Below, one piece after another: positions 680 through 28,676 of a DNA stretch of 32,000 nucleotides (the first letter of the stretch is position 1; every line of letters starts with the position of its first letter). Under the pieces are notes generated by a model. That model made no database searches and was not told where the DNA came from. It saw only the letters and a list, made by a program, of their open reading frames with translations. Source of the stretch: Candidatus Saccharimonadota bacterium (GTDB lineage: Bacteria > Patescibacteriota > Saccharimonadia > Saccharimonadales > UBA4665); the NCBI GenBank assembly GCA_016699955.1, contig CP064993.1, positions 90,001 to 122,000 of the forward strand, written 5' to 3'. The translations under genes and the position numbers were made by a program.

Positions 680-875
680 TACAGTTGTAGGGCAGGACCG
701 AGACTCTTATACGCTTTTTACGTTACTATGTGGGGACACCGAGACCGATGTCATTGATTTATATCGTTTGCTGCGAATAAAAGTATAACCCTCCATCAGA
801 TTTTGAAGGAATGGTTACTAAGGTATTGTACCAGAAAACTTCGTTCAAGCAACTCTCGTTAACACATTACCCCTG

Positions 876-1937
876 TTATTCTTCGCAGAGTTTGTGGCAA
901 TATTTGGCTGCCAGCGCTTCATGTTCGGCAACCGTCTTTGAGAAGTATGTTGTGCCGTTATCACCACTAACAAAAAATAACCAGTCTGTATTAGCCGGTT
1001 TTGCGACGGCTGCAAGCGAAACTTTGCTTACGTTACTTATGGGAGTAGGCGGTAGCCCCGTGTGCAAGCGTGTGTTGTAGGGTGTGTCGTAGGTGACATC
1101 TTTGCCTTTGCCGGCAAGAACAGAGCCATAGTGAGCCGTAACGTCACTTCCGAGCGGAATGCCACTTTTCAGACGTTTGATAAACACTTGCGCTGCTTGG
1201 GCACGATCTGCTTGGCTGACAACTTCTTTTTCGACTATTGAGGCAATGACAAGACCTTCATAAGTAGTGAGTCCTTGGCTTTTAAGGCCGGCTGTTATTT
1301 CGGGGGTGAGGTTTTTTTGCAGCTGTAAAATTGATTGTTCGACAATATTTTTTGCTGTCGTCGCTGCGGTACGCTGGAAAGTTTCGGGATAGAGATAGCC
1401 CTCAAGATTTGTTCCGGCAGGTTTATCGACAAACGCGGGGTAATTGTCATACTGCTGCGGAACCAATGCCGCGTCGACGTCGGCTTCGGTGAAACCTTGG
1501 TTTATAAGTGATCGCCTGATCTGGTCAAGACGCTGGCCGGGGAGAATAGTGACATAGGTTGTGGCGACCTTTCCGTGGGTAAGTTGCGACACAATTTCGG
1601 GAACGTTTTGGCGTTGGCTTATTTCGTAGGACCCGGCCTGGAGGTAACTGCTGACTTTGTGAATCCGCGCGTAATATTCAAACGTTTTCTCGCTACGTAT
1701 TAGCTCTGCCGATTTCAGTTTTGCAGCAATGCTTTTTACTGAAGCGCCCTGCTCAATAGTGATGGTTTCGGTACGGTTTCCGCCGACAGCTTCTAGCCCA
1801 GCGGTGTAGTCTCGCCAGAAAAAGAAGGCGCCTACACCCAGTAGGGCAATGATCGCAAGAGTGCACACTGCAATGAGTTTACCCCTGCGCCGTTTGTTCT
1901 TGCCTGATGGTGTATAACCTCGTGCTTTATACGTCAT
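876..1937 (-). CDS. mltG: Endolytic murein transglycosylase MltG (YceG family)
   Basis: ORF 876..1958(-). It has a basic N-terminus plus a TM helix (LIAVCTLAIIALLGVGAFFFW). YceG hallmarks follow: LVIASIVEKE, DTPYNTRLHTGLPPTPISN and WLFFVSGDNGTTYFSKT. I place the start at ATG 1937 (MTYKARG), which has AAGGAGGAG 5 nt upstream. The track's GTG at 1958 lacks an SD. The gene overlaps the ruvX stop by 11 nt. Confidence 0.92.
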   Translation of the reverse strand: MTYKARGYTPSGKNKRRRGKLIAVCTLAIIALLGVGAFFFWRDYTAGLEAVGGNRTETITIEQGASVKSIAAKLKSAELIRSEKTFEYYARIHKVSSYLQAGSYEISQRQNVPEIVSQLTHGKVATTYVTILPGQRLDQIRRSLINQGFTEADVDAALVPQQYDNYPAFVDKPAGTNLEGYLYPETFQRTAATTAKNIVEQSILQLQKNLTPEITAGLKSQGLTTYEGLVIASIVEKEVVSQADRAQAAQVFIKRLKSGIPLGSDVTAHYGSVLAGKGKDVTYDTPYNTRLHTGLPPTPISNVSKVSLAAVAKPANTDWLFFVSGDNGTTYFSKTVAEHEALAAKYCHKLCEE

Positions 1938-8914: not shown

Positions 8915-9304
8915 TTATAATAGTAAAATACATATTTTTCGCTTTTTTTGCAAGTTCAACTTTCTATACTGCCGTTACGCTTCGTTGCATCGCTGTACAA
9001 AAAAGCATTGTCGTAAAATAACAGCTCAGTTTTTGTTTTGTCAATTATGTGTTTTCGTGATAAAATTAGCGCGGCTTCAGCGTTAAATTAAGCCAGTCAA
9101 AAAAAAGGTTTCAGCCCTAACAATAATTGCTGAATATCAGGTTATTTTAACAGTTTTACCCCACCATATGAGTTAATGGTAACCTCGGCTCGACATAAGT
9201 ACCACCACTGATCCTTAGGCTGCCACCATGATGAGCGAAATCAACCAAACTAGATTATGATGGCCAGTAAAACAAGAGAATGAGACTAACAAGGATGACT
9301 AGCC
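8915..9304. promoter_or_regulatory. 390-bp AT-rich divergent intergenic region (promoters for the serine hydrolase and the amidase presumed)
   Basis: There is no credible ORF. The flanking genes diverge. It contains one copy of the dispersed 19-mer (9180-9198) and the CCTTAGG/CTGCCACC/ATGATG blocks (9213-9233). No promoter boxes were assigned with confidence. Confidence 0.35.
9180..9198 (+). repeat. Dispersed 19-mer, copy 1 (TAACCTCGGCTCGACATAA)
   Basis: It matches 16620-16638 at 16 of 19 positions. It is similar to the reverse complement of 16772-16790. Confidence 0.6.
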
Positions 9305-10237: not shown

Positions 10238-10373
10238 GACACGCCTACCCCACCAGTCAGCCTGCTTGTCGCCAGAGCCGTGATACACTGCTGGCTTGTT
10301 TACTCGATTTACGCAGTAAACACCCGCTACAAAGGTATACCGGGCATTTCCTGCGTTTATCTACGCGTACTTT

Positions 10374-12258: not shown

Positions 12259-14325
12259 ATGGTTTTTAAAAAGGGTATACACAATATGGGTATAGGTCGA
12301 AAGAAAGAAACGCCTCCATCTCCGTTAGGAGCAGAGTCACTAATGACTCAGGCAGATTTTGGCGATGTTTTAAACCAGCCCATGCCAATTAGCACACTTG
12401 TAGATACGTATGGATACCCGGGCGGAAGCGTACTAGGCTATGTGCCCGCAAGCCCACATAAGGAAGTAGCTCATTTTTTGCCCGATAGCTCGTTGGCACT
12501 TGTGCTAAAATCTCCCAATAAATTGTTGGAAAACGCTGTCAGCGGTCGTATTGCAGATATACTCCTACCTTCCCCAGGTTCGAACCCAAGCTCTCCGCTT
12601 CGCAGACGAACCGAAATACTTGTCAGCAGTCAATGGGGTCCGGGGAGGCTATATTCCGCTGCACAAGAGCTCATCAATCAGGACCGTCAAACACGAAATC
12701 CTTATAAGGATTTTACGGGAGCATATGCAGTGTTTATGGAAACGGATCCAGCCATAAAACCACACCCCTTGGCAGACGGCGAGCTTTACCATGACAAAGG
12801 TGATCTGCAGCTTGTCGGCACAATGACTACTGGTGATGCGTTCCCTTCTGACACATTTTTTGACACGAGAGCTATCTTTTCAGGAAATGAGTCGGGTTGG
12901 CCGGAATATGGTTTTGTAAACCAAGTACTCGAAAACTCGCAGGAGGCAAGAGATTATACTGATAGGTTCGGAGGAGAGCGCCAATTTAGGACTCTCGTTG
13001 ACGGTTTAATCACATTTGGTGGCAATTTGTATGCACAACTAGGGGCTATTGCAGAAAAAAATGCAAAAAATAACAAGAAACGCGATGTCGACCTAGACGA
13101 TTTAATGAAAACCGCGCTAAAGGGGACACCCAGAGGAACGGAGGAACTGCTCAAGGAATTTCTGGCAAACAACGGTAACAATCCGTTCATGCTCCGCGTC
13201 CTCAGCCGAGCTTGGCAGGCGAAAACAGATGCTGAAAATGATTATGATGAAATCCCATTTGGGTTCTTCGGTGGTGCAAAGAAATTGCATTATCAAGCAG
13301 CCGTCGAACAGCGGATAAATGGTATTCGAGCTGAGGTTGTCGAGGCTTTACTGCATGGAAGCTGGGTAAACAAGCTGGGGAAAGTTGTTTTAGCCACAAG
13401 AGCATTGCCCCCTCCAACTCGGCTAAGAGTTGAACTATACGACCATTTTGATGTTTCATTTGCCCAGTTACTTCGCCAGATAAATGTGGGTCAATTTGCC
13501 GCAAGCGCACAATTAGCGGCGAGTAATATGAATGCGCCCAACATATCTGACAGCGGCATTTTGGTAGTCCGGTCATTAGATAGCGCTTACCCTATTTTCA
13601 GCTATGGCTCTCCAACAAATGATGAACAATTTCAAGAAATAAGCAGCTTTCAATACGACGGCAAGGGCGGCATGATTGTGGACAATCCCAATGGTAGTTA
13701 TCCAAGAGAACTGTCCCGTTCAATATTTGACAGAACGACTGGGCACGTTGCAATGCAGGGTATTGTGTCGGTGTCTGACAGCGCGCTTAGACTTCGTAAT
13801 GCATTACTTTACCCGCGCAGAAAAGTCGTGATCGATCTTATGGAGGCTCCTGCCAAAATATTGGAGGCACTAATGGACGCCGGGCACCTCGGGGAAGGCG
13901 CGCGCAAAATTCCTGAAAAAGATACACTATTCCTTAGCGAGATCCTTAGTCGAAAACGTGAAACCGACATCATCGTGGCGTCAATGCTAGGATCCTCGGC
14001 TGTAGTGCATGCGGTCATTAGAGAAGGTGGCGGAATGCAATGGGTTAGCGTTCCCCAAACATCGACTGGTGCGCCAGGAATAATTACAGACACTACTAAA
14101 GTTGCTCGGCTCAGAGGAGAACAAGCAGGTAGACCCGGTCAATCCGGCGACTATGTCATGCAGAGTACTCGGCGTCGGGGGTGGGGAGAAAGGGGCGGCA
14201 CGCACATCGCAGGAGTTGCGTTGAAAGACGGCGTGCCTTTACTGTCAAATAGTATTTATCCAGATGTTAGTACTTGGGTCATGCCTCATTCAAGTTTACT
14301 ATTTGATGGTAGGAGGAAAAGATAA
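12259..14325 (+). CDS. Hypothetical protein (688 aa), soluble, no recognisable domain
   Basis: ORF 12259..14325(+). It is a long uninterrupted frame with ordinary globular composition and no TM or signal. The start is uncertain: ATG 12259 has no SD, while ATG 12344 has AGGAG 11 nt upstream. Its stop overlaps the next gene's start (TAATG at 14323-14327). Confidence 0.7.
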   Translation: MVFKKGIHNMGIGRKKETPPSPLGAESLMTQADFGDVLNQPMPISTLVDTYGYPGGSVLGYVPASPHKEVAHFLPDSSLALVLKSPNKLLENAVSGRIADILLPSPGSNPSSPLRRRTEILVSSQWGPGRLYSAAQELINQDRQTRNPYKDFTGAYAVFMETDPAIKPHPLADGELYHDKGDLQLVGTMTTGDAFPSDTFFDTRAIFSGNESGWPEYGFVNQVLENSQEARDYTDRFGGERQFRTLVDGLITFGGNLYAQLGAIAEKNAKNNKKRDVDLDDLMKTALKGTPRGTEELLKEFLANNGNNPFMLRVLSRAWQAKTDAENDYDEIPFGFFGGAKKLHYQAAVEQRINGIRAEVVEALLHGSWVNKLGKVVLATRALPPPTRLRVELYDHFDVSFAQLLRQINVGQFAASAQLAASNMNAPNISDSGILVVRSLDSAYPIFSYGSPTNDEQFQEISSFQYDGKGGMIVDNPNGSYPRELSRSIFDRTTGHVAMQGIVSVSDSALRLRNALLYPRRKVVIDLMEAPAKILEALMDAGHLGEGARKIPEKDTLFLSEILSRKRETDIIVASMLGSSAVVHAVIREGGGMQWVSVPQTSTGAPGIITDTTKVARLRGEQAGRPGQSGDYVMQSTRRRGWGERGGTHIAGVALKDGVPLLSNSIYPDVSTWVMPHSSLLFDGRRKR

Positions 14326-15479
14326 TGTCGGAATTTGGTGGCATAGCCGTACCAATAGGCGAAGACACTAAACGACCACTGCCGAACGTGAGTAGTGGCT
14401 TAGACGAACCGGAACATCAGCCAGCGACACCCTTAGAAGCACGGACAATTATAATGCCGGTGGGTAGCGATACAGAGGGGCAAGTACTAGCAGTACAAAT
14501 CACATCACTTGGTGTAGATAGCTCAGTTGTCATTGAGAATATAAATGAGCTTCCACCTTACTTTACCCTAGGATCTCGTGGTGAAGTCTCTGACGATGGA
14601 AGTAAACTCGGTGTTGGGCCTGTATTTAACCACCCAGCTCGCTTACCAGACACCATTCCCCAAGCAACAGATCCAGAGACATTAGTTGGATTGTTGCAAA
14701 GAGGTACATTATTACCAGCCGATTTGGGTAAACTAACACCGGTTGAGGGTGTTTCTGCAGCAGACCTGCTGAAAGGCTTGACACAAGCAGAGCGGGAAGC
14801 CAATAACAACGGGCAACCACCCCTCAAAGTTGCTGACTTACTTGAATCGGTTAGCGGGGCAGTATTTTTCTCGACAGATGCTCCTGGTCATGGTCGTGGT
14901 AATACACTACTCGGCGGGGCTCGACCAGGTGGCACCATTGTCGCTCTCAGCCTCACTCCGGAAGGCGCAGTGCAAGTTGAAAAAATACATCCCCTGGATG
15001 ACGGAGGTACCATTCGATATATTGGATCTGTCGCTATTCAAAAAAAAACCGATCAAGCTGGAGAGGGTACGACAGTCATTATATCAGGCCCTGGTGTCAT
15101 ATTAGATAAACGGTTTCCTGAGGGAGTGCATCATTTAGACGTTCATACCGGTTTACCTCCGGGTATTACCAACTTAACGCCTAAGACTCAGCTGCCGCCC
15201 GTAACACTGGATCTCGACACAGTCAACAAAGGCCGGAGAGCGCTCGGCTTACCCCTAGTAGCTACACCTAAAGTTAACCTGGCCTCTCTGACAAGTTTAC
15301 CCCCGCAACCACAAAACGGACATGCTCAAAACAATGGTTCTATTGGTAACCCACCATTATCTGGAGGAGAGGGTACTGAGTCTGGATCTGCTGACAAAGT
15401 TACACAAGCGGGTAGCGCAGAAGAAGTGCCGCTATTTGATGCTCCAGAAAGAAGACCGTTGTGGCCAACTCGGAGGTAA
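14325..15479 (+). CDS. Hypothetical protein (384 aa), P/G/T-rich termini, no recognisable domain
   Basis: ORF 14325..15479(+). A strong SD (AGGAGG, 14311-14316) lies 8 nt before the ATG, which overlaps the upstream stop. This suggests translational coupling. There is no TM or signal. Confidence 0.75.
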   Translation: MSEFGGIAVPIGEDTKRPLPNVSSGLDEPEHQPATPLEARTIIMPVGSDTEGQVLAVQITSLGVDSSVVIENINELPPYFTLGSRGEVSDDGSKLGVGPVFNHPARLPDTIPQATDPETLVGLLQRGTLLPADLGKLTPVEGVSAADLLKGLTQAEREANNNGQPPLKVADLLESVSGAVFFSTDAPGHGRGNTLLGGARPGGTIVALSLTPEGAVQVEKIHPLDDGGTIRYIGSVAIQKKTDQAGEGTTVIISGPGVILDKRFPEGVHHLDVHTGLPPGITNLTPKTQLPPVTLDLDTVNKGRRALGLPLVATPKVNLASLTSLPPQPQNGHAQNNGSIGNPPLSGGEGTESGSADKVTQAGSAEEVPLFDAPERRPLWPTRR

Positions 15480-15543
15480 CTAACGATATGACGTCTTAAA
15501 GCAAGTAAACCGTAATGAATAAGCAATTACAAAGGGAGCAGCT

Positions 15544-16383
15544 ATGCGAGGAAGTAAAAGAATAACATCATACGCAGGGGAAGGAGTTGAAGTGCCCGGG
15601 TTTAGGGACCCGAAGACAACAGGCGATAGTACTACGCACTTTACTGATGGCGGGAAGCTGGGCATTGAGACCCGATGTACTCCTGAGGCTTTCCGCAAAG
15701 CGTACCCTATACCAACCGTTCTTGGCTTTATGCTCAGAAAAGTGCACTGGGTTCCGCGTGCCATAATTAGCCCGGAGCATTTACATGTTGACGATGAATA
15801 TAACGCTAAGCTCAAGAGTGTTGCTGTTGATCGTGCGCATAAACGAGGTAAGCTGGGAAACGTACTAGATCCTTTTAGCCATGGTAAGGTTGTACGGAAA
15901 GAGTCACACGGCCTTGAATACCAGCGCCTTAGGGCAGCCCGTATTGGGCTGGTTGGCCTAGCAGCCACAGCGTTGTTGACCGTCGCGACTGATAACGTAC
16001 CCTTTATAGAAAGGCAGAGTGGCTCCATCGAAGCCATCGATACCTCTCCAAGGGCTGGCAGCTCAATCTTAGACGGTGGAGTAATCGCTGGAACGGGACA
16101 GGAAAAGGCTAATGCAAAAATCTCCTTTTTAGGCGGAGCAATTGTCTGCAATAGTCTGATCCCTTTCAAGCTGTCGCCGGATAATGTCGCAGCCCCAGCC
16201 AACCTGATTGCTGCAATGTCGATCGTAAGTGGCGAAGCCTTTACATCCTTACCGGCTGCTGATCAGACTAGACTTCTGAGCGAGGCAATCGCCAATAAAG
16301 AAGTCAACCCAACCCAAGCAAAACCACCGACCGCAACGAGCCCGTTTTATAGCCCAAGCACCTGCACGGGCAAAGGTCTTTAG
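15544..16383 (+). CDS. Hypothetical protein (279 aa) with one central TM helix
   Basis: ORF 15544..16383(+). GGGAG lies 5 nt upstream of the ATG. The gene is co-directional with the two preceding genes. The TM segment is IGLVGLAATALLTVAT. I prefer it over the antisense ORF 15480..16202(-), whose product is S/C/P/L-rich and has no SD. Confidence 0.6.
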   Translation: MRGSKRITSYAGEGVEVPGFRDPKTTGDSTTHFTDGGKLGIETRCTPEAFRKAYPIPTVLGFMLRKVHWVPRAIISPEHLHVDDEYNAKLKSVAVDRAHKRGKLGNVLDPFSHGKVVRKESHGLEYQRLRAARIGLVGLAATALLTVATDNVPFIERQSGSIEAIDTSPRAGSSILDGGVIAGTGQEKANAKISFLGGAIVCNSLIPFKLSPDNVAAPANLIAAMSIVSGEAFTSLPAADQTRLLSEAIANKEVNPTQAKPPTATSPFYSPSTCTGKGL

Positions 16384-16514
16384 CAAAAACTACACGGCGG
16401 AGCCACACACGCAGGAACACCCAGCCATCATGCTAAGGTGGGCAGTATTTGAGTCGAGTACATAACCCGAACTCGGCCCCTACGCCGAGTTCTAAAGGCA
16501 GGCTCGTCCCCCAA

Positions 16515-16545
16515 AAAAACAACTGAAATAAATCCAGTTGTTTTT
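16515..16545. terminator. Possible bidirectional intrinsic terminator hairpin
   Basis: AAAAACAACTG-aaataaatc-CAGTTGTTTTT forms an 11-bp perfect stem. On the minus strand the stem is followed by TTTTTTT, and on the plus strand the 3' arm ends in TTTTT. It lies 130 nt past the stop of 15544..16383. Confidence 0.4.
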
Positions 16546-16619
16546 AGCTCCCCAACCCTGCACGCATTTAGCACTTTAAAGATCCTGTGCATTTTCCGAA
16601 GCACTGAAGGAACCGTACT

Positions 16620-16638
16620 TAACCTGAGTTCGACATAA
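16620..16638 (+). repeat. Dispersed 19-mer, copy 2 (TAACCTGAGTTCGACATAA)
   Basis: It matches copy 1 at 16/19 positions. It matches the reverse complement of 16772-16790 at 17/19. The flank ACCGTA also recurs, giving a ~30-bp imperfect inverted repeat (16609-16638 vs 16772-16800). Confidence 0.6.
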
Positions 16639-16771
16639 CAGTCGACCTCAGTAGGGTCGGGCTCGCCCGCCCCACTCTTTGTTCGGAATAAATCCGAACA
16701 AAGAGCTGCCCACCCCTAAAGGCGCTGCTGACGCAGCGCTTCTTGCGACGAGCGAGAGGATGCACAGGTTT

Positions 16772-16790
16772 TTATGTCGAACTGGGGTTA
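16772..16790 (-). repeat. Dispersed 19-mer, copy 3 (reverse complement reads TAACCCCAGTTCGACATAA)
   Basis: This is the inverted partner of 16620-16638. The two copies bracket 133 bp. Confidence 0.6.
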
Positions 16791-16880
16791 CTTACGGTAC
16801 GGTTAAGTGGTATCGCAACCGCACAGGAAAGAAAAGTCTTGCTTTTTTTAGTAACCGGCCAAAATGTGGTACGTGGTACT

Positions 16881-17549
16881 TTATCGATTACGACCTGGAG
16901 CTGGAGTTACCGGTATCTGACAGGTAGCGCCTTCAGCGATCGAGTTCAGGCCACATACTGACATACTTCCTCCTGTAGGAGCTTTTCCTGTAAGGTAGTC
17001 GAAAGGACGCGCCGTTGTTGGTGCTGGTACCGGTGCTAGCGCTGCAGCCGGACGAGCAGCTGGTTCATAACAGTTTGTTACCTTATCAGTGATTGCCTTG
17101 CCTAATGCTGCAAGGGTAAGGGGACCGATTGCTTCAGGGCTTACTGCGCCACCTTCTTGCAAAACATTGGGATTGGTTGCACCCAAGTTCCTCTTAAATC
17201 TCAGTGAAGATTCGGTAGTTTTTTCAAGGAAATTACCTGCTGGAACCATATCTGCTGGTGTACACCCCACTGATGCGAGCATGCTTTGCGCTGAGAGTAC
17301 GTCCTGGCCAACCATGCCTTTAACCAAAATTCGTGTCGCCGCTGCAACCTCACCCTGTCCTTGGGGAACGGCAGGCGCAGCAGGACCAGTAGCAGCCGCG
17401 GTAGCAATGCCACCCCAGCCCTCTTTTATTGTCCCTTTTTCACTTCCCTTGACACCACATCCTGCTGTTGCTGCTAAGAAAGCCGCTGCAATACCGGTAG
17501 TTACTATTGTCCTTCGGTTGGAAAGAATACCTTCCATACTAATTCTCAT
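16881..17549 (-). CDS. Lipoprotein with putative peptidoglycan-binding (PG_binding_1-like) domain
   Basis: ORF 16881..17549(-), 222 aa. It has a signal plus lipobox (IAAAFLAATAGC). The PG_binding_1 spacing pattern is present: LVKGMVGQDVLSAQSMLASVG...GNFLEKTTESSLRFKRNLG...GAVSPEAIGPLTLAAL. AAGGAGA lies upstream of the ATG. Confidence 0.65.
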   Translation of the reverse strand: MRISMEGILSNRRTIVTTGIAAAFLAATAGCGVKGSEKGTIKEGWGGIATAAATGPAAPAVPQGQGEVAAATRILVKGMVGQDVLSAQSMLASVGCTPADMVPAGNFLEKTTESSLRFKRNLGATNPNVLQEGGAVSPEAIGPLTLAALGKAITDKVTNCYEPAARPAAALAPVPAPTTARPFDYLTGKAPTGGSMSVCGLNSIAEGATCQIPVTPAPGRNR

Positions 17550-17636
17550 AATAAATATATTCTCCTTATATCACTCATTATAGAGTGTAATAGGGCGTAT
17601 TATACCACTCAAGTGTATTGGCAGCAATTACATTTC

Positions 17637-20276
17637 CTACGAGTCACTGTCAATATTATTAACTCCGGGGTCTTGGTTAACACCTGTAATTTTGGGTACA
17701 CTCGCGGGGTTAGCCACATAGCCTTTTGCGCGGTTTACCACTTCGGTCCAGTACTGAGCAATGGATGGGTACTTACCCCCGCCCTGCCCTCTATTAACAT
17801 CATAGCCTTTGCTTTTCCAACCAGAGCCAGCGTACCAACCCCCAGCAACGTCTTTCCATATAGACTCTTCGTTAGCATCTGGAAACTTGTCGTTTGAAAA
17901 CTTCTTGTAAATATCACCGACTTCCCTTCGCATCTGGTCGTATTGAAATTGCGGTGGAGCATCTCTGGCCGATTTGAATCCGCCCCGCCCGCCCCATGTC
18001 CCTACCATCCAGTTTCCTAAGCCTGCTGCTCCGGAATCTGAGTTGAATGACCGCGGGTTGCCACGGGACTCCTGATAAATGATTGAGTTAACCATGGCCT
18101 CAAGCATCACCTTGTGAGCGGGGGACTTGTTCGTCTCCGCCGGCTTAGATGCGCCCTCAGTAGAAGATGGGGTTGCAGTTTTATCATCATTCAACGGTGT
18201 GATTGTGCCATCTAGTGGAGAGGCGCCTGGTGCTTGAGTAGGGGTTGGAGAAACAACCACGCTAAGCGAGCCCACTCCCGCCAGCGCTGTTTGCCCCATT
18301 TCAAGCGGATTTACTCCAGAGTCGACTTGCTCTGGCTTGTCCACACTATCTGCAACCGGAGTTACTTCGGCTGGCACACCTATGGCCACGGTACCAGGGG
18401 TCAAACCGGCAATAGCCACGCTAGGCTGCTGAGGAGTAAGTAGGCTAAGGGGGTTGCGCGTCGCGGGATTAAATACTGGCTGTGGGGAGGTAGAAGCTTG
18501 TTGTGGCGGTGTAGGTGCCTTCTGTTTTGGCTGGTCTGCCTGTTGTGGGGATACGCCTACGAAGCGCATCCCTACATATGTCAGATCATCGCCCTCCCAC
18601 TTATGAAATGTTTCCTTAAAACGATCTGAGAGATTGCCGTCAAACGACCAGTAGCCTTTACCGTTTGGATCAAATCGAGAGAAACGCCCAACGTGATTAT
18701 CGCCATCATGTCCAGTTTTTTTACTCACTCGATAAAACAGGTAATCACCATATACAATTATGTCGTTCAGCTTTCCATTCCGAAAATCCGCAGCAGTATA
18801 TAGCTTAGAACCCGGTTCATTTTCTATGGCCAGCATCATCTCATATGCACCCACGATTCTTCCACTCGACCATGCGGCTTTAGGCCGATTTGTTGTAAGA
18901 ACATAACCGGCATCTGTGTCTATTTGCCAGGCCGCTCCGGCGCACCACGGCCAGTCACGACCTTCCCTGCCTTCCATAAAAAGTTTTGCTGGCAGACCAT
19001 CATTATTACCGGTTTTTTCCCTAATATTCATTTGGAGGTATGCTTCGGCTTTAATCTCAACAGCCTTTGAATAAGCTTTTCGAGATGGTGTTAATACCGA
19101 TACAGTTTCCGCTGGCTGTAGTGTCGGGGCAGTTGGCGCTTCCGACTGGGATTGATCCAGTGGATTTGGGGCTACCCCAAGTGGTGTAATTACGGTCGCG
19201 AGTGGTGCGGGGGTACCAGGTGCATCTACAATATAATCATCTACGCGTTTGATTCCTGAGAAAAGTGTCGTGGACAAATCTCTTGTGAGTGGGTTGGTTG
19301 CTCCACCCATCCGATCCAGTGGTGTAATTTCGACAGCTGGGACAAGCGCACTCAGCGGTTGTGTCGGCAGTTGTTGGCTGACATTATAAGTCCCTACGAG
19401 CGGTTGACTACCCTGGAGGTCAGGTGTAGTGCCGGGTGCCGAAGCCACAGTGCCACTGGGAAATTGAGCAATCCGAGACAATGCTTCGAACGGTGAAACA
19501 GTAAGCAGTTGTTGAGGTGTGGGGCTACTCACTATTTGGGGCGCAATTGTGACGCTTGCGACAGGTACAGTACGAGGATTTGCTACTTCTGCTGCGTTTA
19601 TACCTAGTCTGGGGCTGGGCTGGGGACTGGCTACTTGAACTGGGGTACCCTGGGACAGCAAGGCAGTTGTTTCGGTTCGGGCTCCTGGGGTGTCTGAAAC
19701 GACGGTAGCTGGGCGTAAGTCGGGTATACCTGCCCAACCTGTGGTAATGCGCCGACTGTCCGGCGTCATGGTCGCTCCAGCAACAATTGCTGTCTGATTC
19801 AGGCTTGTCTCCCCAACCGGCACTACGGTTGCAGGTGTACCCGTGGTCGCAAGTCGACCGAGCGGAGCAGTTGGTGATAATACATTTGTCCGAGACTCGG
19901 TGGATGTTGAACCTATTCCTGCAGCTAAACTTGGTAAACCCTGACCCGTCATTCTCTGGACGATACTTTCAGGAAGAACAATCTTCGGCGGTGCTTCTAG
20001 GATAGTGGGCTCAGTAGAAATACCCCCGATTTGACCGGGTACTAGGGCGGCCCCAACAATCGGGTTCGTAGGCAGTATGCCACCGGACTGTGGCTGCCAG
20101 TTTGCTATCAGTGCCAAGTCGCTCCCACCGGCACCCGACTGTACGGCAAGAGAGAGAAGAACGCCAGCTCCTGCTGCTCTAACAGACCCTGGGGGCATAT
20201 GAGTATCGGCCGTCAAACGCGCAGGCGGTGCGAGCTGCGCGATGTGCCTTGCTAAACTATTGGGGTCATAATACAT
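17637..20276 (-). CDS. Large two-domain peptidoglycan hydrolase: ~400-aa P/T/S/Q-rich region + CHAP-like cysteine amidase/peptidase + C-terminal SLT-type lytic transglycosylase
   Basis: ORF 17637..20276(-), 879 aa. GGAGAAACTC lies before the ATG. The CHAP-like core has DWPWCAGAAWQI (Cys ~445, codon 18942-18944). It continues DIIVYGDYLFYRVSK...DNHVGRFSRF...WSFDGN (His ~528, codon 18693-18695). The SLT motif is IIYQESRGNPRSFNSDSGAAGLGNWM (Glu ~736, codon 18069-18071). Confidence 0.85.
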   Translation of the reverse strand: MYYDPNSLARHIAQLAPPARLTADTHMPPGSVRAAGAGVLLSLAVQSGAGGSDLALIANWQPQSGGILPTNPIVGAALVPGQIGGISTEPTILEAPPKIVLPESIVQRMTGQGLPSLAAGIGSTSTESRTNVLSPTAPLGRLATTGTPATVVPVGETSLNQTAIVAGATMTPDSRRITTGWAGIPDLRPATVVSDTPGARTETTALLSQGTPVQVASPQPSPRLGINAAEVANPRTVPVASVTIAPQIVSSPTPQQLLTVSPFEALSRIAQFPSGTVASAPGTTPDLQGSQPLVGTYNVSQQLPTQPLSALVPAVEITPLDRMGGATNPLTRDLSTTLFSGIKRVDDYIVDAPGTPAPLATVITPLGVAPNPLDQSQSEAPTAPTLQPAETVSVLTPSRKAYSKAVEIKAEAYLQMNIREKTGNNDGLPAKLFMEGREGRDWPWCAGAAWQIDTDAGYVLTTNRPKAAWSSGRIVGAYEMMLAIENEPGSKLYTAADFRNGKLNDIIVYGDYLFYRVSKKTGHDGDNHVGRFSRFDPNGKGYWSFDGNLSDRFKETFHKWEGDDLTYVGMRFVGVSPQQADQPKQKAPTPPQQASTSPQPVFNPATRNPLSLLTPQQPSVAIAGLTPGTVAIGVPAEVTPVADSVDKPEQVDSGVNPLEMGQTALAGVGSLSVVVSPTPTQAPGASPLDGTITPLNDDKTATPSSTEGASKPAETNKSPAHKVMLEAMVNSIIYQESRGNPRSFNSDSGAAGLGNWMVGTWGGRGGFKSARDAPPQFQYDQMRREVGDIYKKFSNDKFPDANEESIWKDVAGGWYAGSGWKSKGYDVNRGQGGGKYPSIAQYWTEVVNRAKGYVANPASVPKITGVNQDPGVNNIDSDS

Positions 20277-20312
20277 GAGTTTCTCCGGCTAGGACGTTTT
20301 TACCCATTTATG

Positions 20313-21173
20313 TTACTGTGCCTCCGTCAGTTGGCATGTAACTATGTGAGGGGTTGCAACAAGCTGTTTAGTGGCTGGGTCGGTCGATTGAACCATAAGA
20401 CCGACATATACATTCGGAACATTCGGACTATCTGGTTTCATTGTGTAGGGCGCAATTGCGTAAGCATTTTCAGCTGTCAAAAGATCTTTGGCCGGTATGT
20501 CGGTACTATCACGAAGAAGCCACCCGGCATGGACCTGAGCCTTTTGCACAACGGCTGCCATGTCATCCCTGCACATCTGTGCCGTCTCTAGTGCACGTTT
20601 TTTTTCTGCCTCACTTGCACCTTTTTTTACCACCGTCATTGAGGCAACAATATCCCCAAGGGTTAGTTTATTGACTTGTTCTGGCGTGACTGGTTTGGCT
20701 AGTCCTGCCTTATCAGTATAAGTAGCGCCGTACGCGTCCGTAAAACCTTCGACACTATATGTAAATGTGGGGAACACGACAATATGCCCGTCTTTCCCCC
20801 GAGCAATTTTTCCGGCGTTCACCGCATAACTACCAAGTACTTGACTATTCGCGCCTTCCCGGCGAAGCGATGCGGGGATTTCACGTGGCTTGGTCTGTAA
20901 TGGTGCGGCCATCCAGCCAGTTGCGCACCAGCCCGAGTCACTTTTTATACAGTAGCTGTTTATGTGACCTAAAAAATCGCTACCCAAATCTCTACCCATA
21001 TAGCCGGCGACACCAAGAACAGTGCCTAAGCCAGCGGCAATCACCTTGCGCCTTGTGATAAACCGATTGCCGGAGCCGCCCAGCACGTAAATCACCGATG
21101 GAGTTCCGCTGCCATAGCCGTTACCATTAGCTGGCAACAGATCGCTCATGTTAAACTTTTTGCCTTTAGCCAT
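20313..21173 (-). CDS. Hypothetical membrane-anchored protein (~286 aa)
   Basis: ORF 20313..21185(-). I place the start at ATG 21173 (MAKGKKF), which has GGAG 7 nt upstream. The track's start at 21185 is a TTG. There is one N-proximal TM helix (VIAAGLGTVLGVAGYM). I recognise no family for the remainder. Confidence 0.7.
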   Translation of the reverse strand: MAKGKKFNMSDLLPANGNGYGSGTPSVIYVLGGSGNRFITRRKVIAAGLGTVLGVAGYMGRDLGSDFLGHINSYCIKSDSGWCATGWMAAPLQTKPREIPASLRREGANSQVLGSYAVNAGKIARGKDGHIVVFPTFTYSVEGFTDAYGATYTDKAGLAKPVTPEQVNKLTLGDIVASMTVVKKGASEAEKKRALETAQMCRDDMAAVVQKAQVHAGWLLRDSTDIPAKDLLTAENAYAIAPYTMKPDSPNVPNVYVGLMVQSTDPATKQLVATPHIVTCQLTEAQ

Positions 21174-21211
21174 CACATACTCCAAACAGATCTATTCTAA
21201 ACTTCATCTTG

Positions 21212-22306
21212 CTAACCCGCCGCCATTAACTTACCAGTTCCGCAACTCACTTTTGTTGGGTTAGCGACAACACTCCACCGTATAGTTGTGTCCTCAAGCC
21301 CTTCGATCTTTGTCGTTGTTCCTGTCATGCTCGCAATACGAGCATTGAGAATTGCTTGGTATTTTTCAACACGTTTTGCATCTGAGGTAATATGTACCCT
21401 AAAGCTGTCGCGGATTGGTTTTTCTTCCGATATTTGTCCCGGTTGTTTTGGCTCCGGATATTGATCAGCAAATGCTTGGGTTATCCTATCCCTGACGACC
21501 TTGTCCGAACCATAGATCTCTAGGAGTCCGCCCAAAGCCACTTTAGCAATTTCACGCTCTACAGCCTGCAGAGACATCCCGCCATTTTGGAGCGCTTCGA
21601 GCGGACATGCTTGGGCATTAACCGAATCGACGATAAGAGCAGCTAAAGCTGTCCTTAGAACTGCCTCGATTTCATCTTTCCCTTCAGTGTCCATATTTGT
21701 TTTAAAAAACCCACCATCATCATTCTTCCAGAGTTGTTCGTTTGCCAGGCCACCCGCCTCCTCTCCAGCTGCCACTCTGGTGGAGCAGACCTCGATAGGC
21801 TCAGTAAAAACTTTTACCTTTACTCTATCTAGTCCATCAGCGACAATTGAGGTCTGGAGCGTTGATTTTGGTGGTATGCCGTTTATGCCTCCCTTGTCTG
21901 CCAGATCGGTACCAAAACAAACTTGATACCTGGCTGTTACTACTTTTTCATTGTTCTTGTTCCAGGTTATATTTGAACCAGGACCCTCCCAAAATCCTTT
22001 CCATTTTTCATTGTCGATCCTGACGTTTGCTTCACCTTTGAGAGTCATGGCGACTTCACCTAAAACATGTTTTTGGATAGTATTGACCGGAAATTCACGT
22101 TCTTTTACCGGGGCTTGCACGGTAGCTGTTACTTCAGTATGACCCGTATCCCAGCCGAAACATTTGCTAATACTACCTGCTGTATTATTTCCAGTTACGA
22201 CCTCGGCCGAGCAATTGACACCATCACGAAAACCAGGCACAAAAGCATATACTGATGCAACTGATGCAAGTCCTACTGCAACGCATCCGGCTGCTACCTT
22301 ACCCAT
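21212..22306 (-). CDS. Hypothetical exported/anchored protein (364 aa)
   Basis: ORF 21212..22306(-). It has an N-terminal hydrophobic signal or anchor (MGKVAAGCVAVGLASVASVYAF). Several Cys residues are spaced through the exported part. No recognisable domain. Confidence 0.7.
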   Translation of the reverse strand: MGKVAAGCVAVGLASVASVYAFVPGFRDGVNCSAEVVTGNNTAGSISKCFGWDTGHTEVTATVQAPVKEREFPVNTIQKHVLGEVAMTLKGEANVRIDNEKWKGFWEGPGSNITWNKNNEKVVTARYQVCFGTDLADKGGINGIPPKSTLQTSIVADGLDRVKVKVFTEPIEVCSTRVAAGEEAGGLANEQLWKNDDGGFFKTNMDTEGKDEIEAVLRTALAALIVDSVNAQACPLEALQNGGMSLQAVEREIAKVALGGLLEIYGSDKVVRDRITQAFADQYPEPKQPGQISEEKPIRDSFRVHITSDAKRVEKYQAILNARIASMTGTTTKIEGLEDTTIRWSVVANPTKVSCGTGKLMAAG

Positions 22307-24090: not shown

Positions 24091-25172
24091 AGCAGCCCTC
24101 CAGGTCCCTTTGAAGTAGGACACTAGCCAGAAAGGCTAGTGCATATGAAACGGTATAGAAAAATCCCTAAAATAAGTCGATCCAAATCTACAATAGTAGC
24201 TATGGGTCAAAAGTATGGTCATTTAAGCTACGAAGATCGAGTAAAGATAGAGCATTGGCACAGGGGCGGCAAAAGTATTCGCTACATAGCGAGCGAGTTG
24301 GGGCGTAGCCCCAATACTATTAGTTATGAATTGAAGAATCTAGCGGTCTCTGGTGAGTATGTTGCTCGTAAAGCCAGTGTCAAGGCATACCAAAAACGCT
24401 ACTGGGCGCGTACATCGAGTAATAAGGTAGCAAAAGATAAGACACTGCGCCAATACGTTGACGACAGTCTCGACAAAGGCTGGTCACCTGGTGAGATCGC
24501 TGGCAGCAGTGACTGTCCTGTTTCAAAACGGACTATCTACCGCTATGTCACACTCTATTCCCTGCAGCACAAGCTGTACTTTAAGGGTAAGCCGAAACGG
24601 AGAAAGGCCATGTACCGACGTGGGCTCATTGGCGAACGTAAATGGATTGAGGAACGGATACTGTGCGACGAAGTTGGTCACTACGAGCTTGACTTCATTG
24701 TCAGCCCAACGAGAAGCGGCAGTAAAGCTGTCCTACTGGTGGCCGTCGACACCCTAAGCAAACGAACCCTTATCGAGCTGCTCCCAAACCGAACCAAAAA
24801 AGAGCTCTCACGAGCTCTGAAGCGGATGTTTGACGGCATTGTCGTCAAGACCATACTGACCGACAATGACATCGCCTTCACCTACTGGAAACATTTCGAG
24901 CAGCTGCTCGGAGCACCGTTCTTTTTCACCCATCCCTACCATAGCTGGGAGAAGGGCTTAGTCGAGAATACGAACAAATGGATACGTCACTTCATACCGA
25001 AAAAAACAGACCTGAGCACGGTTACCAAAGAAACCATCGCTACAGTACTAGCGTACCTAAACGAACGCCCAAGACAAGTCTTGGGCTACAGAACTGCGAA
25101 TGAAGTATACTTAGAGAGATTAACAATACAGGTTTAGTGTCCTACTTGGGGGTATCCTGTACGAGCCCTAGC
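24091..25172 (+). mobile_element. IS30-family insertion sequence, apparently intact (ends +/- ~40 bp)
   Basis: It carries a single transposase ORF. The terminal inverted repeats have a perfect 13-bp core: AAGTAGGACACTA at 24113-24125 versus TAGTGTCCTACTT at 25135-25147. Imperfect extension runs outward (CAGG...; GC.AG..CTC) to about 24091 and 25172. The transposase stop codon lies inside the right IR. Confidence 0.8.
24145..25137 (+). CDS. IS30 family transposase
   Basis: ORF 24139..25137(+). I start at ATG 24145 (MKRYRK). The N-terminal HTH reads HLSYEDRVKIEHWHRGGKSIRYIASELGRSPNTISYELK. The DDE core has ELDFIV, ILTDNDIAF and PYHSWEKGLVENTNKWIRHFIPKKTDLS, which is the classic IS30 C-terminal signature. 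Confidence 0.92.
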   Translation: MKRYRKIPKISRSKSTIVAMGQKYGHLSYEDRVKIEHWHRGGKSIRYIASELGRSPNTISYELKNLAVSGEYVARKASVKAYQKRYWARTSSNKVAKDKTLRQYVDDSLDKGWSPGEIAGSSDCPVSKRTIYRYVTLYSLQHKLYFKGKPKRRKAMYRRGLIGERKWIEERILCDEVGHYELDFIVSPTRSGSKAVLLVAVDTLSKRTLIELLPNRTKKELSRALKRMFDGIVVKTILTDNDIAFTYWKHFEQLLGAPFFFTHPYHSWEKGLVENTNKWIRHFIPKKTDLSTVTKETIATVLAYLNERPRQVLGYRTANEVYLERLTIQV

Positions 25173-27625: not shown

Positions 27626-28162
27626 CTAAACCGCTTCTACCTTACACCTGCACCATCAGTTCGATATTACAAAGTATTCGCAGGGCTAGCCGAGCGGGGG
27701 CATAATTCCGAAGGTTAGTTCTTCGGATTTAAGCTTCATATTGTCGTCAATGACAACGGCGAACTGCTTGCTGTACGTATGACACCAGGTAATGTGTCTG
27801 ATGCCAATACCCCGTCGTCACAGGACTTACCAAAGGTCTGACTGGCAGGCTATTTGCTGACAAGGGCTATATTTCAAAGAACTTGTTCGCGAAGCTATGG
27901 AGACGAGGCTTACAGCTTGTCACAAACATCCGGAAGAATATGCAGAACAAATTAATTGATTCAAGCCAAGTTACTACTAAGGAAGCGGTTCATCATAGAA
28001 ACCATCAACGATCACCTGAAAAACAACGAACAGATTGAGCATACGCGGCATCGAAGCTTCGCAAACTTTACTGTAAACGTTATTGTTGGGCTTATCGCCT
28101 ACCAGCTTCAGCCAAAGAAACCAAGTATACGAGTTCCTAAGGTGATATTGTTGGGGGCTTAG
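27626..28162 (+). pseudogene. IS982-family transposase relic (5'-truncated, one in-frame stop, two frameshifts)
   Basis: Three frames must be joined. The first reads ...YKVFAGLAERGHNSEG*FFGFKLHIVVNDNGELLAVRMTPGNVSDANTP, with TAG at 27716-27718 where the family has Trp. A shift occurs near 27838 to LTGRLFADKGYISKNLFAKLWRRGLQLVTNIRKNMQNKL. A second shift occurs near 27956 to [53 protein letters not shown]. The pattern matches the C-terminal two-thirds of IS982-type DDE transposases as I remember them. The relic starts directly after the PBP stop codon. Confidence 0.75.
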
Positions 28163-28174
28163 GTCGGGTTGGGG

Positions 28175-28519
28175 TTAATGAGTCTTACGTCTGTATAATA
28201 ATGACCCGAGAGCCAGCCCAACTAGAGCGTCAGTTCCTAGGAGAGCGGTGCCTAACGGAGTTGCCTCGCGCAATTCCGCACGCGGTTGCCCAGACACCCC
28301 GCTCCTCACGGTCTCTAACGTAGTGACCACAGGTGATAGAAAATATTCACCTGTATCCCATTGATCGCCCAGCCAGTGCTGTACCGCCGAGGGTGGAGAT
28401 TGGATACGCCCTCTTAAATCATCCGCCACAGCGTAGGTTTCTGTAGCTGCCACTAAACACCCGAGTGCAAGAACCATCCTAACACCCGCCTCTACCACAT
28501 TCAAACCTCGTTCTGCCAT
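28175..28519 (-). CDS. Hypothetical small exported protein (114 aa) with C-terminal hydrophobic segment + basic tail
   Basis: ORF 28175..28519(-). GAGGGAGA lies upstream of the ATG. It has an N-terminal signal-like helix (VRMVLALGCLVAATETYA). The C-terminus is ...REATPLGTALLGTDALVGLALGSLLYRRKTH. Confidence 0.6.
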   Translation of the reverse strand: MAERGLNVVEAGVRMVLALGCLVAATETYAVADDLRGRIQSPPSAVQHWLGDQWDTGEYFLSPVVTTLETVRSGVSGQPRAELREATPLGTALLGTDALVGLALGSLLYRRKTH

Positions 28520-28676
28520 ATTCCGTCTCCCTCTTTAGTTTTGTATTCACTCATATATACACCCGCCTGTAGATAATGCAAGCTATATGTCGCTTATTTG
28601 TAAATATTACAATCTTATTATCTGCCGAGCGCTTGCCGGCAAACCGTTCATACTGTGGAAAAACCCCTACAGCGAG

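What the first reader, a model, noticed from the sequence alone, without database searches (positions are those of the whole stretch)
16384..16880. Tandem hairpin modules with compensatory stems in a 497-bp convergent gap: candidate undescribed structured RNA or element
- **Gap size.** The gap between two convergent stop codons is 497 bp. The other convergent gap in the window (10238-10373) is 136 bp.
- **Stem-loops.** The gap is almost entirely stem-loops:
  - 16469-16492: GAACTCGGC/GCCGAGTTC.
  - 16515-16545: 11-bp stem.
  - 16624-16651: CTGAG-T-TCGAC/GTCGA-C-CTCAG.
  - 16675-16705: 12-bp stem.
  - 16722-16739: GCGCTGC/GCAGCGC.
- **Two modules.** Modules at ~16469-16560 and ~16624-16718 share one architecture. 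The order is hairpin, then linker TA..GG..GGCTCGYCC.CCCC, then a hairpin with loop AATAAAT(C), then AGCTSCCCAMCCCT.
- **Compensatory stems.** Loops and linkers are conserved. The stem sequences are unrelated yet each is perfectly self-complementary. That pattern is expected when structure is selected rather than sequence.
- **Long-range pairings.** GGTGGGCAG (16437-45) pairs with CTGCCCACC (16706-14). Segment 16619-38 pairs with 16772-90 over 19 positions (1 mismatch, 1 G-U). CCTGTGCAT (16584-92) pairs with ATGCACAGG (16760-68). These pairings cross one another, implying pseudoknots or alternative conformers.
- **Strand hints.** On the + strand the unpaired linkers contain five runs of four or more C. 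This is reminiscent of the C-rich seeds of Gram-positive sRNAs that pair with SD sequences. A T-run at 16843-16849 could mark a + strand 3' end.
- **Known families.** I could not fit any family I know (see rejected items).
Basis: seen in the sequence. Interest (0 to 1): 0.8.

Follow-up and report, generated by a model that had tools for sequence, protein, structure and literature searches.

The report
IS982-derived MITE copies, not RNA gene
The hairpin-rich 497-bp gap in this Saccharibacteria genome holds one complete and one truncated copy of a small non-coding transposon (a MITE) that carries the end sequences of IS982 insertion sequences, so it is mobile-DNA debris with unusually well-kept internal hairpins, not a new RNA gene.

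Summary
The gap folds far better than shuffles (z -6.8 on +, -6.5 on -). Rfam and ARAGORN find nothing.

The interpretation changes.
- **Ends.** The boxes that start each module and, inverted, close the second one are IS982-family terminal inverted repeats. They are 19/19 identical to the left end of an intact IS982 element (L034) and 17/20 to another (L032).
- **Complete copy.** Module B is a 167-bp MITE (16622-16788) with AC...GT ends and 17/24 matching TIRs. It is flanked by a perfect TACTTA direct repeat.
- **Partial copy.** Module A (16465 to about 16567) is a 5' fragment.
- **Other relics.** A solo end lies at 9182-9198. A decayed IS982 transposase gene lies at 27666-28175.
- **Relatives.** Related copies sit at unrelated loci in other Saccharibacteria MAGs. 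At one of these loci close relatives lack the element.

One oddity remains. The internal hairpins covary strongly (85% paired against 41-50% in slid controls; 11 of 20 pairs change on both sides). Loops and linkers stay 77-86% identical in comparisons among the four closer copies, against 21-62% for H3 stem columns. G-U pairs are almost absent.

Verdict: a new member of a known kind (MITE). A minority possibility is that the internal module is exapted.

The parts
16465..16567 (+). Module A: 5'-partial MITE copy. It has a diverged left end (ACCCGAACTCGGCC), H1 16469-16492, a degenerate H2 16497-16512, H3 16515-16545 and the tail AGCTCCCCAACCCT 16546-16559. It has no right end.
   Evidence: Aligns with L003 761-876 (blastn) and with module B. 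CM R1 scores 65.6 bits, E 2e-14. Coordinates.
16616..16621 (.). Left copy of the direct repeat TACTTA (target-site duplication).
   Evidence: the 6/6 identical repeat flanks the AC...GT ends. The reconstructed empty site is ACCGTACTTACGGT.
16622..16788 (+). Module B: complete 167-bp MITE. Left TIR 16622-16638 (ACCTGAGTTCGACATAA), H1 16624-16651, H2 16654-16673, H3 16675-16705 (loop AATAAAT), C-rich tail 16706-16722, H4 16722-16739, right TIR 16772-16788 (TTATGTCGAACTGGGGT).
   Evidence: TIRs match at 17/24. Colinear with the 165-bp L003 copy, 68% identity, E 2e-16. The TIR is 19/19 identical to the left end of an IS982 element in L034-36 and 17/20 to the L032 IS982 TIR.
16789..16794 (.). Right copy of the direct repeat TACTTA.
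16384..16464 (.). Ordinary spacer downstream of the + strand gene. It is not homologous to the MITE family.
   Evidence: No CM or box hit. It holds only a weak terminator-like site on the - strand at 16409-16391, within the number expected from shuffles.
16795..16880 (.). Spacer downstream of the - strand gene, with an A/T-only hairpin and a T-run (about 16826-16851).
   Evidence: Sequence and the predicted local hairpin. No family homology.
9182..9198 (+). Solo IS982-type end (ACCTCGGCTCGACATAA) in the 390-bp divergent gap 8915-9304.
   Evidence: One of only six hits to the TIR pattern at up to 4 substitutions in 328 kb of held DNA. Aligned in A8.
27666..28175 (+). Decayed IS982-family element. 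The transposase gene is 5'-truncated and frameshifted (homologous to profile positions 111-242 of 243). A right-end remnant GGTCGGGTTGGGGT (28162-28175) lies next to the stop codon.
   Evidence: Pfam DDE_Tnp_1_3, 4e-46. NCBIfam transpos_IS982, 135.9 bits against a cutoff of 130. Frames. The end aligns with the MITE ends in A8.

Best explanation
The gap is a small nest of non-autonomous transposon copies. A 165-167-bp MITE family carries the terminal inverted repeats of IS982-family insertion sequences and is therefore mobilised in trans by an IS982 DDE transposase. Such a transposase was once resident in this genome: a dead copy lies 11 kb away.

One copy (16622-16788) is complete and still shows its target-site duplication. 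A second copy immediately upstream (16465 to about 16567) has lost its 3' part.

The hairpins H1-H4 are internal features of the MITE. H1 is the left TIR folding back on an adjacent inverted copy of itself. The 27-nt 'long-range helix' is the two TIRs plus a palindromic target.

- **Shown:** TIR identity with IS982 ends, the direct repeat, lack of coding capacity, dispersal to unrelated loci in other Saccharibacteria, presence or absence among relatives, and covariation of the stems.
- **Inferred:** trans-mobilisation by IS982 transposase. Also inferred is that stem complementarity is kept largely by DNA-level processes in palindromes (template switching or arm flipping), and/or by selection for a hairpin that must form on both strands. 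One such role would be to insulate or terminate transcription in the 3' gene ends where the copies sit.
For: 1. **TIR match to IS982.**
   - L032 was found only through transposase similarity (51% aa identity). It has 21-nt TIRs TAACGTGAGTTCGACGAAATT, 17/20 identical to the module B left box.
   - Scanning IMG/VR for the box found three loci carrying TAACCTGAGTTCGACATAA, identical to module B over 19/19. In L034 the box lies just upstream of a transposase gene 44% identical to the window's fragment.
   - In 328 kb of held DNA the box (up to 4 substitutions) hits only MITE ends, the solo end and the L032 IS ends.
2. **Ends and direct repeat.** The ends are AC...GT and the 6-bp direct repeat TACTTA flanks them. 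This fits the published IS982 features: 5'-AC ends, IR of 11-32 bp, DR of 2-10 bp (PMC7335449).
3. **Resident IS982 remnant.** It lies at 27666-28175 and has a matching right end.
4. **Dispersal.** The same element fills a different convergent gap in L003 (165 bp). It also follows a MacB/FtsX permease gene in L002.
5. **Presence or absence.** At that permease site the element is absent in L007, L025, L016, L017/18 and L028. A diverged version is present in L012-15.
6. **No coding capacity and no known RNA.** No conserved ORF and no Rfam or ARAGORN hit.
7. **Precedent.** IS982-derived MITEs are known, for example MITECca01 (PMC9769881).
8. **Base-pair type.** Pairs are almost purely Watson-Crick, with 2 G-U among 115 cells. 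As read from the sequences, the H1 arms of module A and L003 look like flipped versions of module B's (GAGTTC against GAACTC). Both points suggest DNA-level symmetry, not a single-strand RNA.
Against: - **Copy number unknown.** The source genome (1.21-Mb contig) could not be scanned. Only 1 complete copy, 1 partial copy and 1 solo end are seen in 32 kb. CM R1 found no further copies in about 277 kb of other Saccharibacteria DNA.
- **Copies are not near-identical.** Module A against module B is no closer than module B against copies in other species, so there is no sign of a recent burst.
- **Loops outlast stems.** Unpaired loops and linkers are much better conserved (77-86% in comparisons among the four closer copies) than the H3 stem columns (21-62%), which nevertheless stay complementary. 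Neutral decay of a dead MITE would not produce this pattern.
- **TIR-less copies.** The L002 and L012 copies lack both TIRs but keep H2, H3 and the tail, starting right after the same stop codon. This hints at retention by selection.
- **Weak L003 duplication.** The L003 copy shows only a 2-bp (TA) flank repeat.
- **No full-length parent.** No full-length Saccharibacteria IS982 with this interior was found, so the origin of the interior is unknown.
Confidence: 0.85

Rival explanations
1. The MITE carries, or has become, a functional cis-acting RNA module. On this reading H2, H3 and the tail (with H1 and H4) are selected as transcript structures at gene 3' ends, for example as a bidirectional terminator, an insulator or a 3'-end stabiliser. 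The module has been exapted in some lineages after loss of the TIRs. This extends the MITE explanation; it does not replace it.
For: - Strong covariation: 85% of cells paired against 41-50% in slid controls, 11/20 pairs change on both sides, and 0/500 shuffles reach the score.
- Loops and linkers are more conserved than stems.
- All independent loci place the element directly after the stop codon of a co-oriented gene, and three of four contexts are convergent gaps that it fills completely.
- TIR-less modules persist at the same site in L002 and L012. Their permease genes are saturated at third codon positions (53% identity), yet unpaired columns of the element remain 27/35 identical.
- Watson-Crick-only pairing is expected if both strands must fold, as in a bidirectional terminator.
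Against: - No U-tract follows H2 or H3 except in module A, so these are not canonical intrinsic terminators.
- The element is absent from sister lineages at the same site (L007, L025), so it is dispensable there.
- L002's copy resembles module B and L003 more than it resembles L012's copy at the orthologous site. That fits independent insertions better than long vertical retention.
- Co-orientation in 3 independent loci is not significant (p about 0.25).
- There is no expression data.
Confidence: 0.25
2. A free-standing, trans-acting structured ncRNA gene on the + strand, with C-rich seed regions that pair to Shine-Dalgarno sequences and with pseudoknotted long-range helices.
For: - Highly stable fold.
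- Conserved unpaired C-rich linkers.
- Covarying stems.
- No Rfam match.
Against: - There is no conserved synteny: the family sits at unrelated loci.
- Copies include fragments: a 5' half in module A, and TIR-less cores in L002 and L012.
- The 'closing helix' is a pair of IS982 TIRs with a target duplication.
- In L003 the local H1 hairpin replaces the long-range pairing.
- The other two long-range pairings are at chance level.
- No promoter or terminator is conserved.
- G-U pairs are nearly absent and wobble evidence does not pick a strand.
Confidence: 0.05
3. Single-stranded-DNA recombination substrates of another system. Candidates are integron attC sites, REP/BIME elements served by a RAYT, or IS200/IS605-type palindrome-associated elements, all of which are recognised by hairpin structure.
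For: - Structure is conserved while stem sequence varies, and pairs are Watson-Crick only.
- ACTTAAC (16617-23) and GTTAAGT (16802-08) fit the attC R''/R' consensus as I recall it (not tested against a model).
Against: - The R''/R' match is absent in L003 (read from the sequence).
- The ORFs of at least 150 aa scanned with Pfam show no integron integrase, RAYT or TnpA(Y1)/TnpB. This is not an exhaustive search of the window.
- The ends instead match a DDE (IS982) element, with a TSD that HUH elements do not make.
- The modules are separated by 160 bp with no cassette ORF.
Confidence: 0.03

Closest known systems
MITECca01/02, IS982-derived MITEs of the Cardinium endosymbiont (PMC9769881)
   Same: Short (about 240 bp against 165-167 bp here) and non-coding. 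Terminal inverted repeats are taken from an IS982-family element. Found in a reduced, host-associated genome that also holds decaying IS982 copies.
   Different: - Different host phylum (Saccharibacteria/CPR).
- Different interior.
- Few, diverged copies instead of many near-identical ones.
- The interior is a series of covarying hairpins with conserved loops.
- No intact parental IS was seen in the source window.
IS982 insertion-sequence family (review PMC7335449; intact examples L032 and L034 here)
   Same: TIR sequence TAAC[C/G]TGAGTTCGAC... with 5'-AC ends. The direct repeat lies within the reported 2-10 bp range. DDE transposase family confirmed for the resident remnant (NCBIfam, above cutoff).
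   Different: No transposase gene lies between the ends. The interior shares nothing detectable with the 5' or 3' untranslated parts of L032 or L034.
Structured bacterial intergenic repeats: Correia/NEMIS (Neisseria), BOX and RUP (Streptococcus pneumoniae), ERIC (enterobacteria). From my own knowledge, not tested here.
   Same: Small TIR-bounded or modular repeats. They lie in intergenic regions or at gene 3' ends and fold into stable hairpins when transcribed. Modules can be duplicated or missing, as in BOX A-B(n)-C.
   Different: Those families have many near-identical copies per genome. Here the copies are few and the stems are highly diverged but complementary.
Rfam RF02713 MCS4 (Mycoplasma sRNA)
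   Same: The best Rfam match: two hairpins, the second followed by a T-run, on the - strand at 16512-16649.
   Different: 28.7 bits against a gathering score of 56, E = 0.06. The match straddles the junction of the two MITE copies. No hit in the homologous L003 copy. Not a member.

Membership tests
MITE (non-autonomous DNA transposon) | Small size (under about 300-500 bp) and no coding capacity | tested here: met
   167 bp (window) and 165 bp (L003). Only short, non-conserved ORFs; the stems differ between copies.
MITE (non-autonomous DNA transposon) | Terminal inverted repeats | tested here: met
   17/24 identical between the ends of the window copy. The box recurs at both ends of L003.
MITE (non-autonomous DNA transposon) | Target-site duplication flanking the ends | tested here: met
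   TACTTA at 16616-21 and 16789-94, 6/6. If the conserved TA is counted as part of the ends, this is a 2-bp CT duplication. L003 shows only TA, so the evidence there is weak.
MITE (non-autonomous DNA transposon) | TIRs shared with an autonomous IS family that can supply transposase | tested here: met
   19/19 identical to the left end of the L034-36 IS982-type elements. 17/20 to the L032 IS982 TIR. IS982 remnant in the window.
MITE (non-autonomous DNA transposon) | Multiple dispersed copies, and occupied against empty sites among relatives | tested here: inconclusive
   - In the window: 1 complete copy, 1 partial copy, 1 solo end.
- Copies at unrelated loci in L002, L003 and L012-15.
- The site after the permease gene is empty in L007, L025, L016, L017 and L028.
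- The genome-wide copy number in the source MAG could not be scanned. No empty site is available for the window insertion, because the flanking genes are orphans.
MITE (non-autonomous DNA transposon) | Mobilisation by the cognate transposase | not testable with these tools
   Needs a transposition or binding assay.
IS982 family (for the remnant at 27666-28175) | Transposase matches the family model above the curated cutoff | tested here: met
   NCBIfam NF033520 transpos_IS982, 135.9 bits against cutoff 130, covering profile positions 111-242 of 243. Pfam DDE_Tnp_1_3, 4e-46.
IS982 family (for the remnant at 27666-28175) | Intact element with two IRs and an uninterrupted transposase | tested here: not met
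   The 5' third is missing and there are frameshifts and stops. Only a right-end remnant remains. It is a relic.
Any Rfam RNA family (tmRNA, RNase P, SRP, 6S and others) | Covariance-model score at or above the family gathering threshold | tested here: not met
   0 hits at gathering threshold in the window. The best sub-threshold hit is MCS4 at 28.7/56 bits. L003 gives no hit at E up to 1. ARAGORN finds none.
Integron attC site | R''(RYYYAAC)...R'(GTTRRRY) boundaries conserved across copies, and an integrase or cassette array nearby | tested here: not met
   The motif pair is present by eye only in the window flanks, which are the palindromic target and not the element. It is absent in L003. 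No integrase domain was found in the window ORFs scanned. There is no cassette ORF between the modules.
Canonical intrinsic terminator | GC-rich hairpin followed directly by a U-tract | tested here: not met
   The scan finds 2 weak sites in 16000-17300 against 1.5 expected, and neither is a family hairpin. Only module A's AT-rich H3 is followed by T-runs.

The most novel reading that the evidence does not exclude
The internal H2-H3-tail module (GGGGNGGG-CUCG-CCCNCCCC, then a variable 12-14-bp stem with the loop AAUAAAU, then GAGCUCCCCACCCCUAAAGG) may be a functional structured nucleic-acid domain under purifying selection. It would ride on an IS982-type MITE and would have been exapted, after loss of the TIRs, as a 3'-end element of genes in some Saccharibacteria. 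Possible roles are a U-tract-independent bidirectional terminator or insulator, or a protein-binding RNA. That would be a MITE acting as a vehicle that spreads a regulatory RNA module in ultra-small CPR genomes.
Probability: 0.2. Interest if true: 0.55.

Novelty: new member of a known kind. Interest (0 to 1): 0.3.

Why it matters
- **Annotation.** It removes a false lead: a 497-bp 'structured RNA' candidate is transposon debris. It also gives an annotatable repeat family for Saccharibacteria. My literature search found no paper that holds both 'Saccharibacteria' and 'miniature inverted-repeat'.
- **Method.** Strong covariation statistics can arise inside a mobile element built of palindromes. 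Checking for TIRs, target duplications and IS ends should therefore precede any ncRNA claim.
- **Residual curiosity.** Loops and linkers are conserved, stems are hypervariable but perfectly Watson-Crick, and TIR-less cores survive right after a stop codon in streamlined genomes. If this reflects selection, it would be an example of MITE exaptation in CPR bacteria.

Tried and rejected
- **Known RNA families.** Rfam at gathering and E-value thresholds on the window, the gap and L003 gave nothing above threshold. ARAGORN gave nothing.
- **Phage origin.** blastn against phage records found no match. PHROGs gave no hit for the flanking proteins.
- **Orthologous loci.** Both flanking proteins tested (222 aa and 879 aa) have no homologue other than themselves among 5.8 billion proteins. 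No comparative locus exists for the window insertion.
- **Source contig.** Look-ups of the source contig by exact protein failed.
- **Collection scans with the internal pattern.** Viral contigs gave 0 hits. The metagenome scan gave 3 hits, all chance, with no hairpins. One genome hit, L001, is also chance.
- **CM R1 and nhmmer.** On about 277 kb of other Saccharibacteria DNA they found no copies beyond those already known.
- **IS30 as parent.** The IS30 element at 24.1-25.1 kb has unrelated TIRs, AAGTAGGACACTA. Rejected.
- **A left IS982 end at 27650.** A box-like sequence there lies inside the transposase reading frame, homologous to coding sequence in L032. It is a chance resemblance. Rejected.
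- **dif/Xer site, tRNA-like T-arm, small conserved ORFs, SD-like start sites.** I inspected the sequences by eye and found no consistent support in L003 or L002.
- **Alternative pairing of the H2 5' arm with the C-rich tail.** It is not conserved across copies.
- **Strand assignment from G-U against A-C.** The evidence is balanced, with a few cases each way. Undecided.
- **Module A as an older copy split by insertion of module B.** The sequence right of 16794 does not carry a convincing right end. Not supported.

Full report
**1. Where we are**

The window is chromosomal DNA of a Candidatus Saccharibacteria (CPR) MAG.
- The 222-aa ORF at 16881-17549 (-) is identical to NCBI protein IPL85_00555, from a 1.21-Mb contig.
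- Housekeeping genes are present: alaS, mltG/yceG, PBP1, ftsA-like.
- The two genes flanking the gap and their neighbours from 12.2 to 22.3 kb have no Pfam or PHROG hit. The two I searched have no homologue other than themselves in 5.8 billion proteins.

**2.

- The gap 16384-16880 lies between convergent stops.
- The region folds much better than dinucleotide shuffles on both strands (z -6.76 and -6.49).
- Rfam has nothing at gathering threshold. The only sub-threshold match is MCS4 (28.7 of 56 bits, E 0.06). ARAGORN finds no tRNA or tmRNA.
- Of the long-range pairings, only the 27-nt inverted repeat 16612-38 / 16772-98 is beyond chance. About 0.8 perfect inverted 9-mers are expected in a region this size (my estimate).

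**3. The element recurs elsewhere**

A pattern built from the conserved linkers and loop was scanned over one genome per GTDB species.
- It hit two other Saccharibacteria MAGs, plus one chance hit.
- In L003 a 165-bp copy fills a different convergent gap. It is colinear with window 16620-16790 (68% identity, E 2e-16).
- In L002 a core of about 100 nt follows the stop codon of a MacB/FtsX permease gene.
- The metagenome hits were chance and the viral collection had none.

The common architecture on the C-rich strand is:
- left box;
- H1;
- H2 (GGGGNGGG-CTCG-CCCNCCCC);
- H3 (variable 12-14-bp stem, loop AATAAAT);
- tail GAGCTCCCCACCCCTAAAGG;
- H4;
- right box TTTATGTCGAACTGRGGTTA, the inverted left box.

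**4. The boxes are IS982 ends**

I noticed a box-like sequence next to a transposase-like stretch and analysed 27.6-28.2 kb.
- It is a frameshifted, 5'-truncated IS982-family transposase gene: Pfam DDE_Tnp_1_3 4e-46, NCBIfam transpos_IS982 135.9 bits against a cutoff of 130.
- A box-like right end, GGTCGGGTTGGGGT, lies next to its stop codon.
- An intact relative was fetched purely by transposase similarity (L032, 51% aa identity). It has 21-nt TIRs TAACGTGAGTTCGACGAAATT, 17/20 identical to the module B left box TTAACCTGAGTTCGACATAA.
- Searching IMG/VR for the box returned three loci with TAACCTGAGTTCGACATAA, identical to module B over 19/19. In L034 the box lies just upstream of an IS982 transposase gene.
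- In 328 kb of held DNA the box, allowing 4 substitutions, occurs only at MITE ends, at a solo end (window 9182-9198) and at the L032 IS ends.

With ends defined by this homology, module B is a 167-bp element (16622-16788).
- It has AC...GT termini and 17/24 matching TIRs.
- It is flanked by a perfect direct repeat TACTTA. The inferred empty site is the near-palindrome ACCGTACTTACGGT.
- That palindrome explains why the inverted repeat seems to extend to 27 nt.
- These properties match the IS982 family as reviewed: 5'-AC ends, IR of 11-32 bp, DR of 2-10 bp (PMC7335449).
- IS982-derived MITEs have a precedent in Cardinium (PMC9769881).

Module A (16465 to about 16567) has a diverged left end, H1, a degenerate H2, H3 and the tail, but no right end. 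It is a truncated copy.

**5. Behaviour at an orthologous site**

Downstream of the permease gene I compared seven lineages.
- The element is present in L002.
- A strongly diverged form is present in L012-15 (H2 GGAGGGG-CACG-CCCCTCC, loop AATTAAT, CCCCTAAAGCC).
- It is absent in L007 (15-bp gap), L025, L016, L017/18 and L028.
- By permease identity, L007 and L012 are sisters (91%), then L025, then L002. The distribution therefore needs either two gains or one gain and two losses.
- L002's copy is more like module B and L003 than like L012's copy, which favours independent insertions.
- Against that, both copies lack TIRs and start at the same point after the stop codon, which would fit one old, trimmed and retained insertion. 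I cannot decide between these.

**6. The part that remains odd**

On a CM-guided alignment of six sequences (the alignment leans toward the model's structure):
- 85% of cells pair, against 41-50% when partners are slid by 1 to 3 columns.
- 11 of 20 pairs show changes on both sides, 9 of them among the 12 pairs of H3.
- No shuffle reaches the covariation score.
- Among the four closer copies (module A, module B, L002, L003), unpaired columns are 77-86% identical, while H3 stem columns are 21-62%. Comparisons with the diverged L012/L014 copies are lower: 54-77% for unpaired columns and 30-43% for H3 columns.
- H1 also shows compensated differences between module A (GAACTCGGC/GCCGAGTTC) and L003 (GAACCCGACG/CGTCGGGTTC).
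- G-U pairs are almost absent (2 of 115 cells). The few wobble-or-mismatch cases split evenly between strands.
- Some arms look like flipped versions of each other. A 10-mer, CTCTCGCTCG, appears inverted between L003 and the window.

My reading (inference) is that much of the 'compensation' comes from DNA-level events in palindromes, namely template switching and arm flipping. Such events change both arms at once. Selection for a hairpin that works on both strands may also contribute. The better conservation of loops than stems is not explained by neutral decay. It keeps open the possibility that the module has a function, in transposition or as an RNA element at gene 3' ends.

**7. Verdict**

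The finding is a real, previously unannotated repeat, but it is not a new structured RNA gene. It is a nest of IS982-type MITE copies: a new member of a known kind. A modest residual possibility (about 0.2) is that its hairpin core is functional or exapted.

Noticed in passing
window 27666-28175: Relic of an IS982-family insertion sequence. The transposase gene is 5'-truncated and frameshifted, and a right-end remnant lies next to the stop codon. It sits in a 1-kb 'intergenic' gap (27626-28676) that also holds a 114-aa ORF on the - strand (28175-28519).
   Followed up: yes
window 24112-25147: Apparently intact IS30-family element. The 332-aa transposase at 24139-25137 has HTH_38 and rve domains. 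The 13-bp perfect terminal inverted repeats are AAGTAGGACACTA (24113-24125 / 25135-25147). They are unrelated to the MITE ends.
   Followed up: partly
window 9182-9198 (gap 8915-9304): A solo IS982-type end (ACCTCGGCTCGACATAA, preceded by GGTA) with no adjacent hairpin module. It lies in a 390-bp divergent intergenic region that also holds the best sigma-70-like promoter matches of the window.
   Followed up: partly
window 12259-22306: A block of eight ORFs of 222-879 aa with no Pfam hit; six of them were also scanned with PHROGs and gave no hit. The two searched (222 aa, 879 aa) have no homologue other than themselves among 5.8 billion proteins. The MITE nest sits in the middle of this lineage-specific block.
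   Followed up: partly
window 5586-7481: The alanyl-tRNA synthetase ORF is only 631 aa. It has the catalytic domain and the tRNA_SAD domain, and is shorter than the roughly 870 aa usual for bacterial AlaRS (my recollection). It may lack the C-terminal domain.
   Followed up: no
L012 7338-7440, and L013-L015: A diverged, TIR-less version of the hairpin module fills the whole 103-bp convergent gap between the permease and PGI genes. Its H3 pairs slightly better on the - strand: one G-U there is a C-A mismatch on the + strand. The close strain L014 carries uncompensated changes in the H3 5' arm, in the H3 loop and in the H2 loop.
   Followed up: partly
L002 5058-5084: Directly after the TIR-less module there is an extended -10-like TGTATACTT, about 10 nt upstream of the DnaJ-like gene start. 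The module may abut that gene's promoter.
   Followed up: no
L034 about 689-957 (- strand); L035, L036: IS982-type elements in IMG/VR contigs share a 5' leader in which AAAGCCTT near the left end can pair with AAGGCTTT just before the transposase start codon. This could be a translational control hairpin. It is unrelated in sequence to the MITE interior.
   Followed up: no
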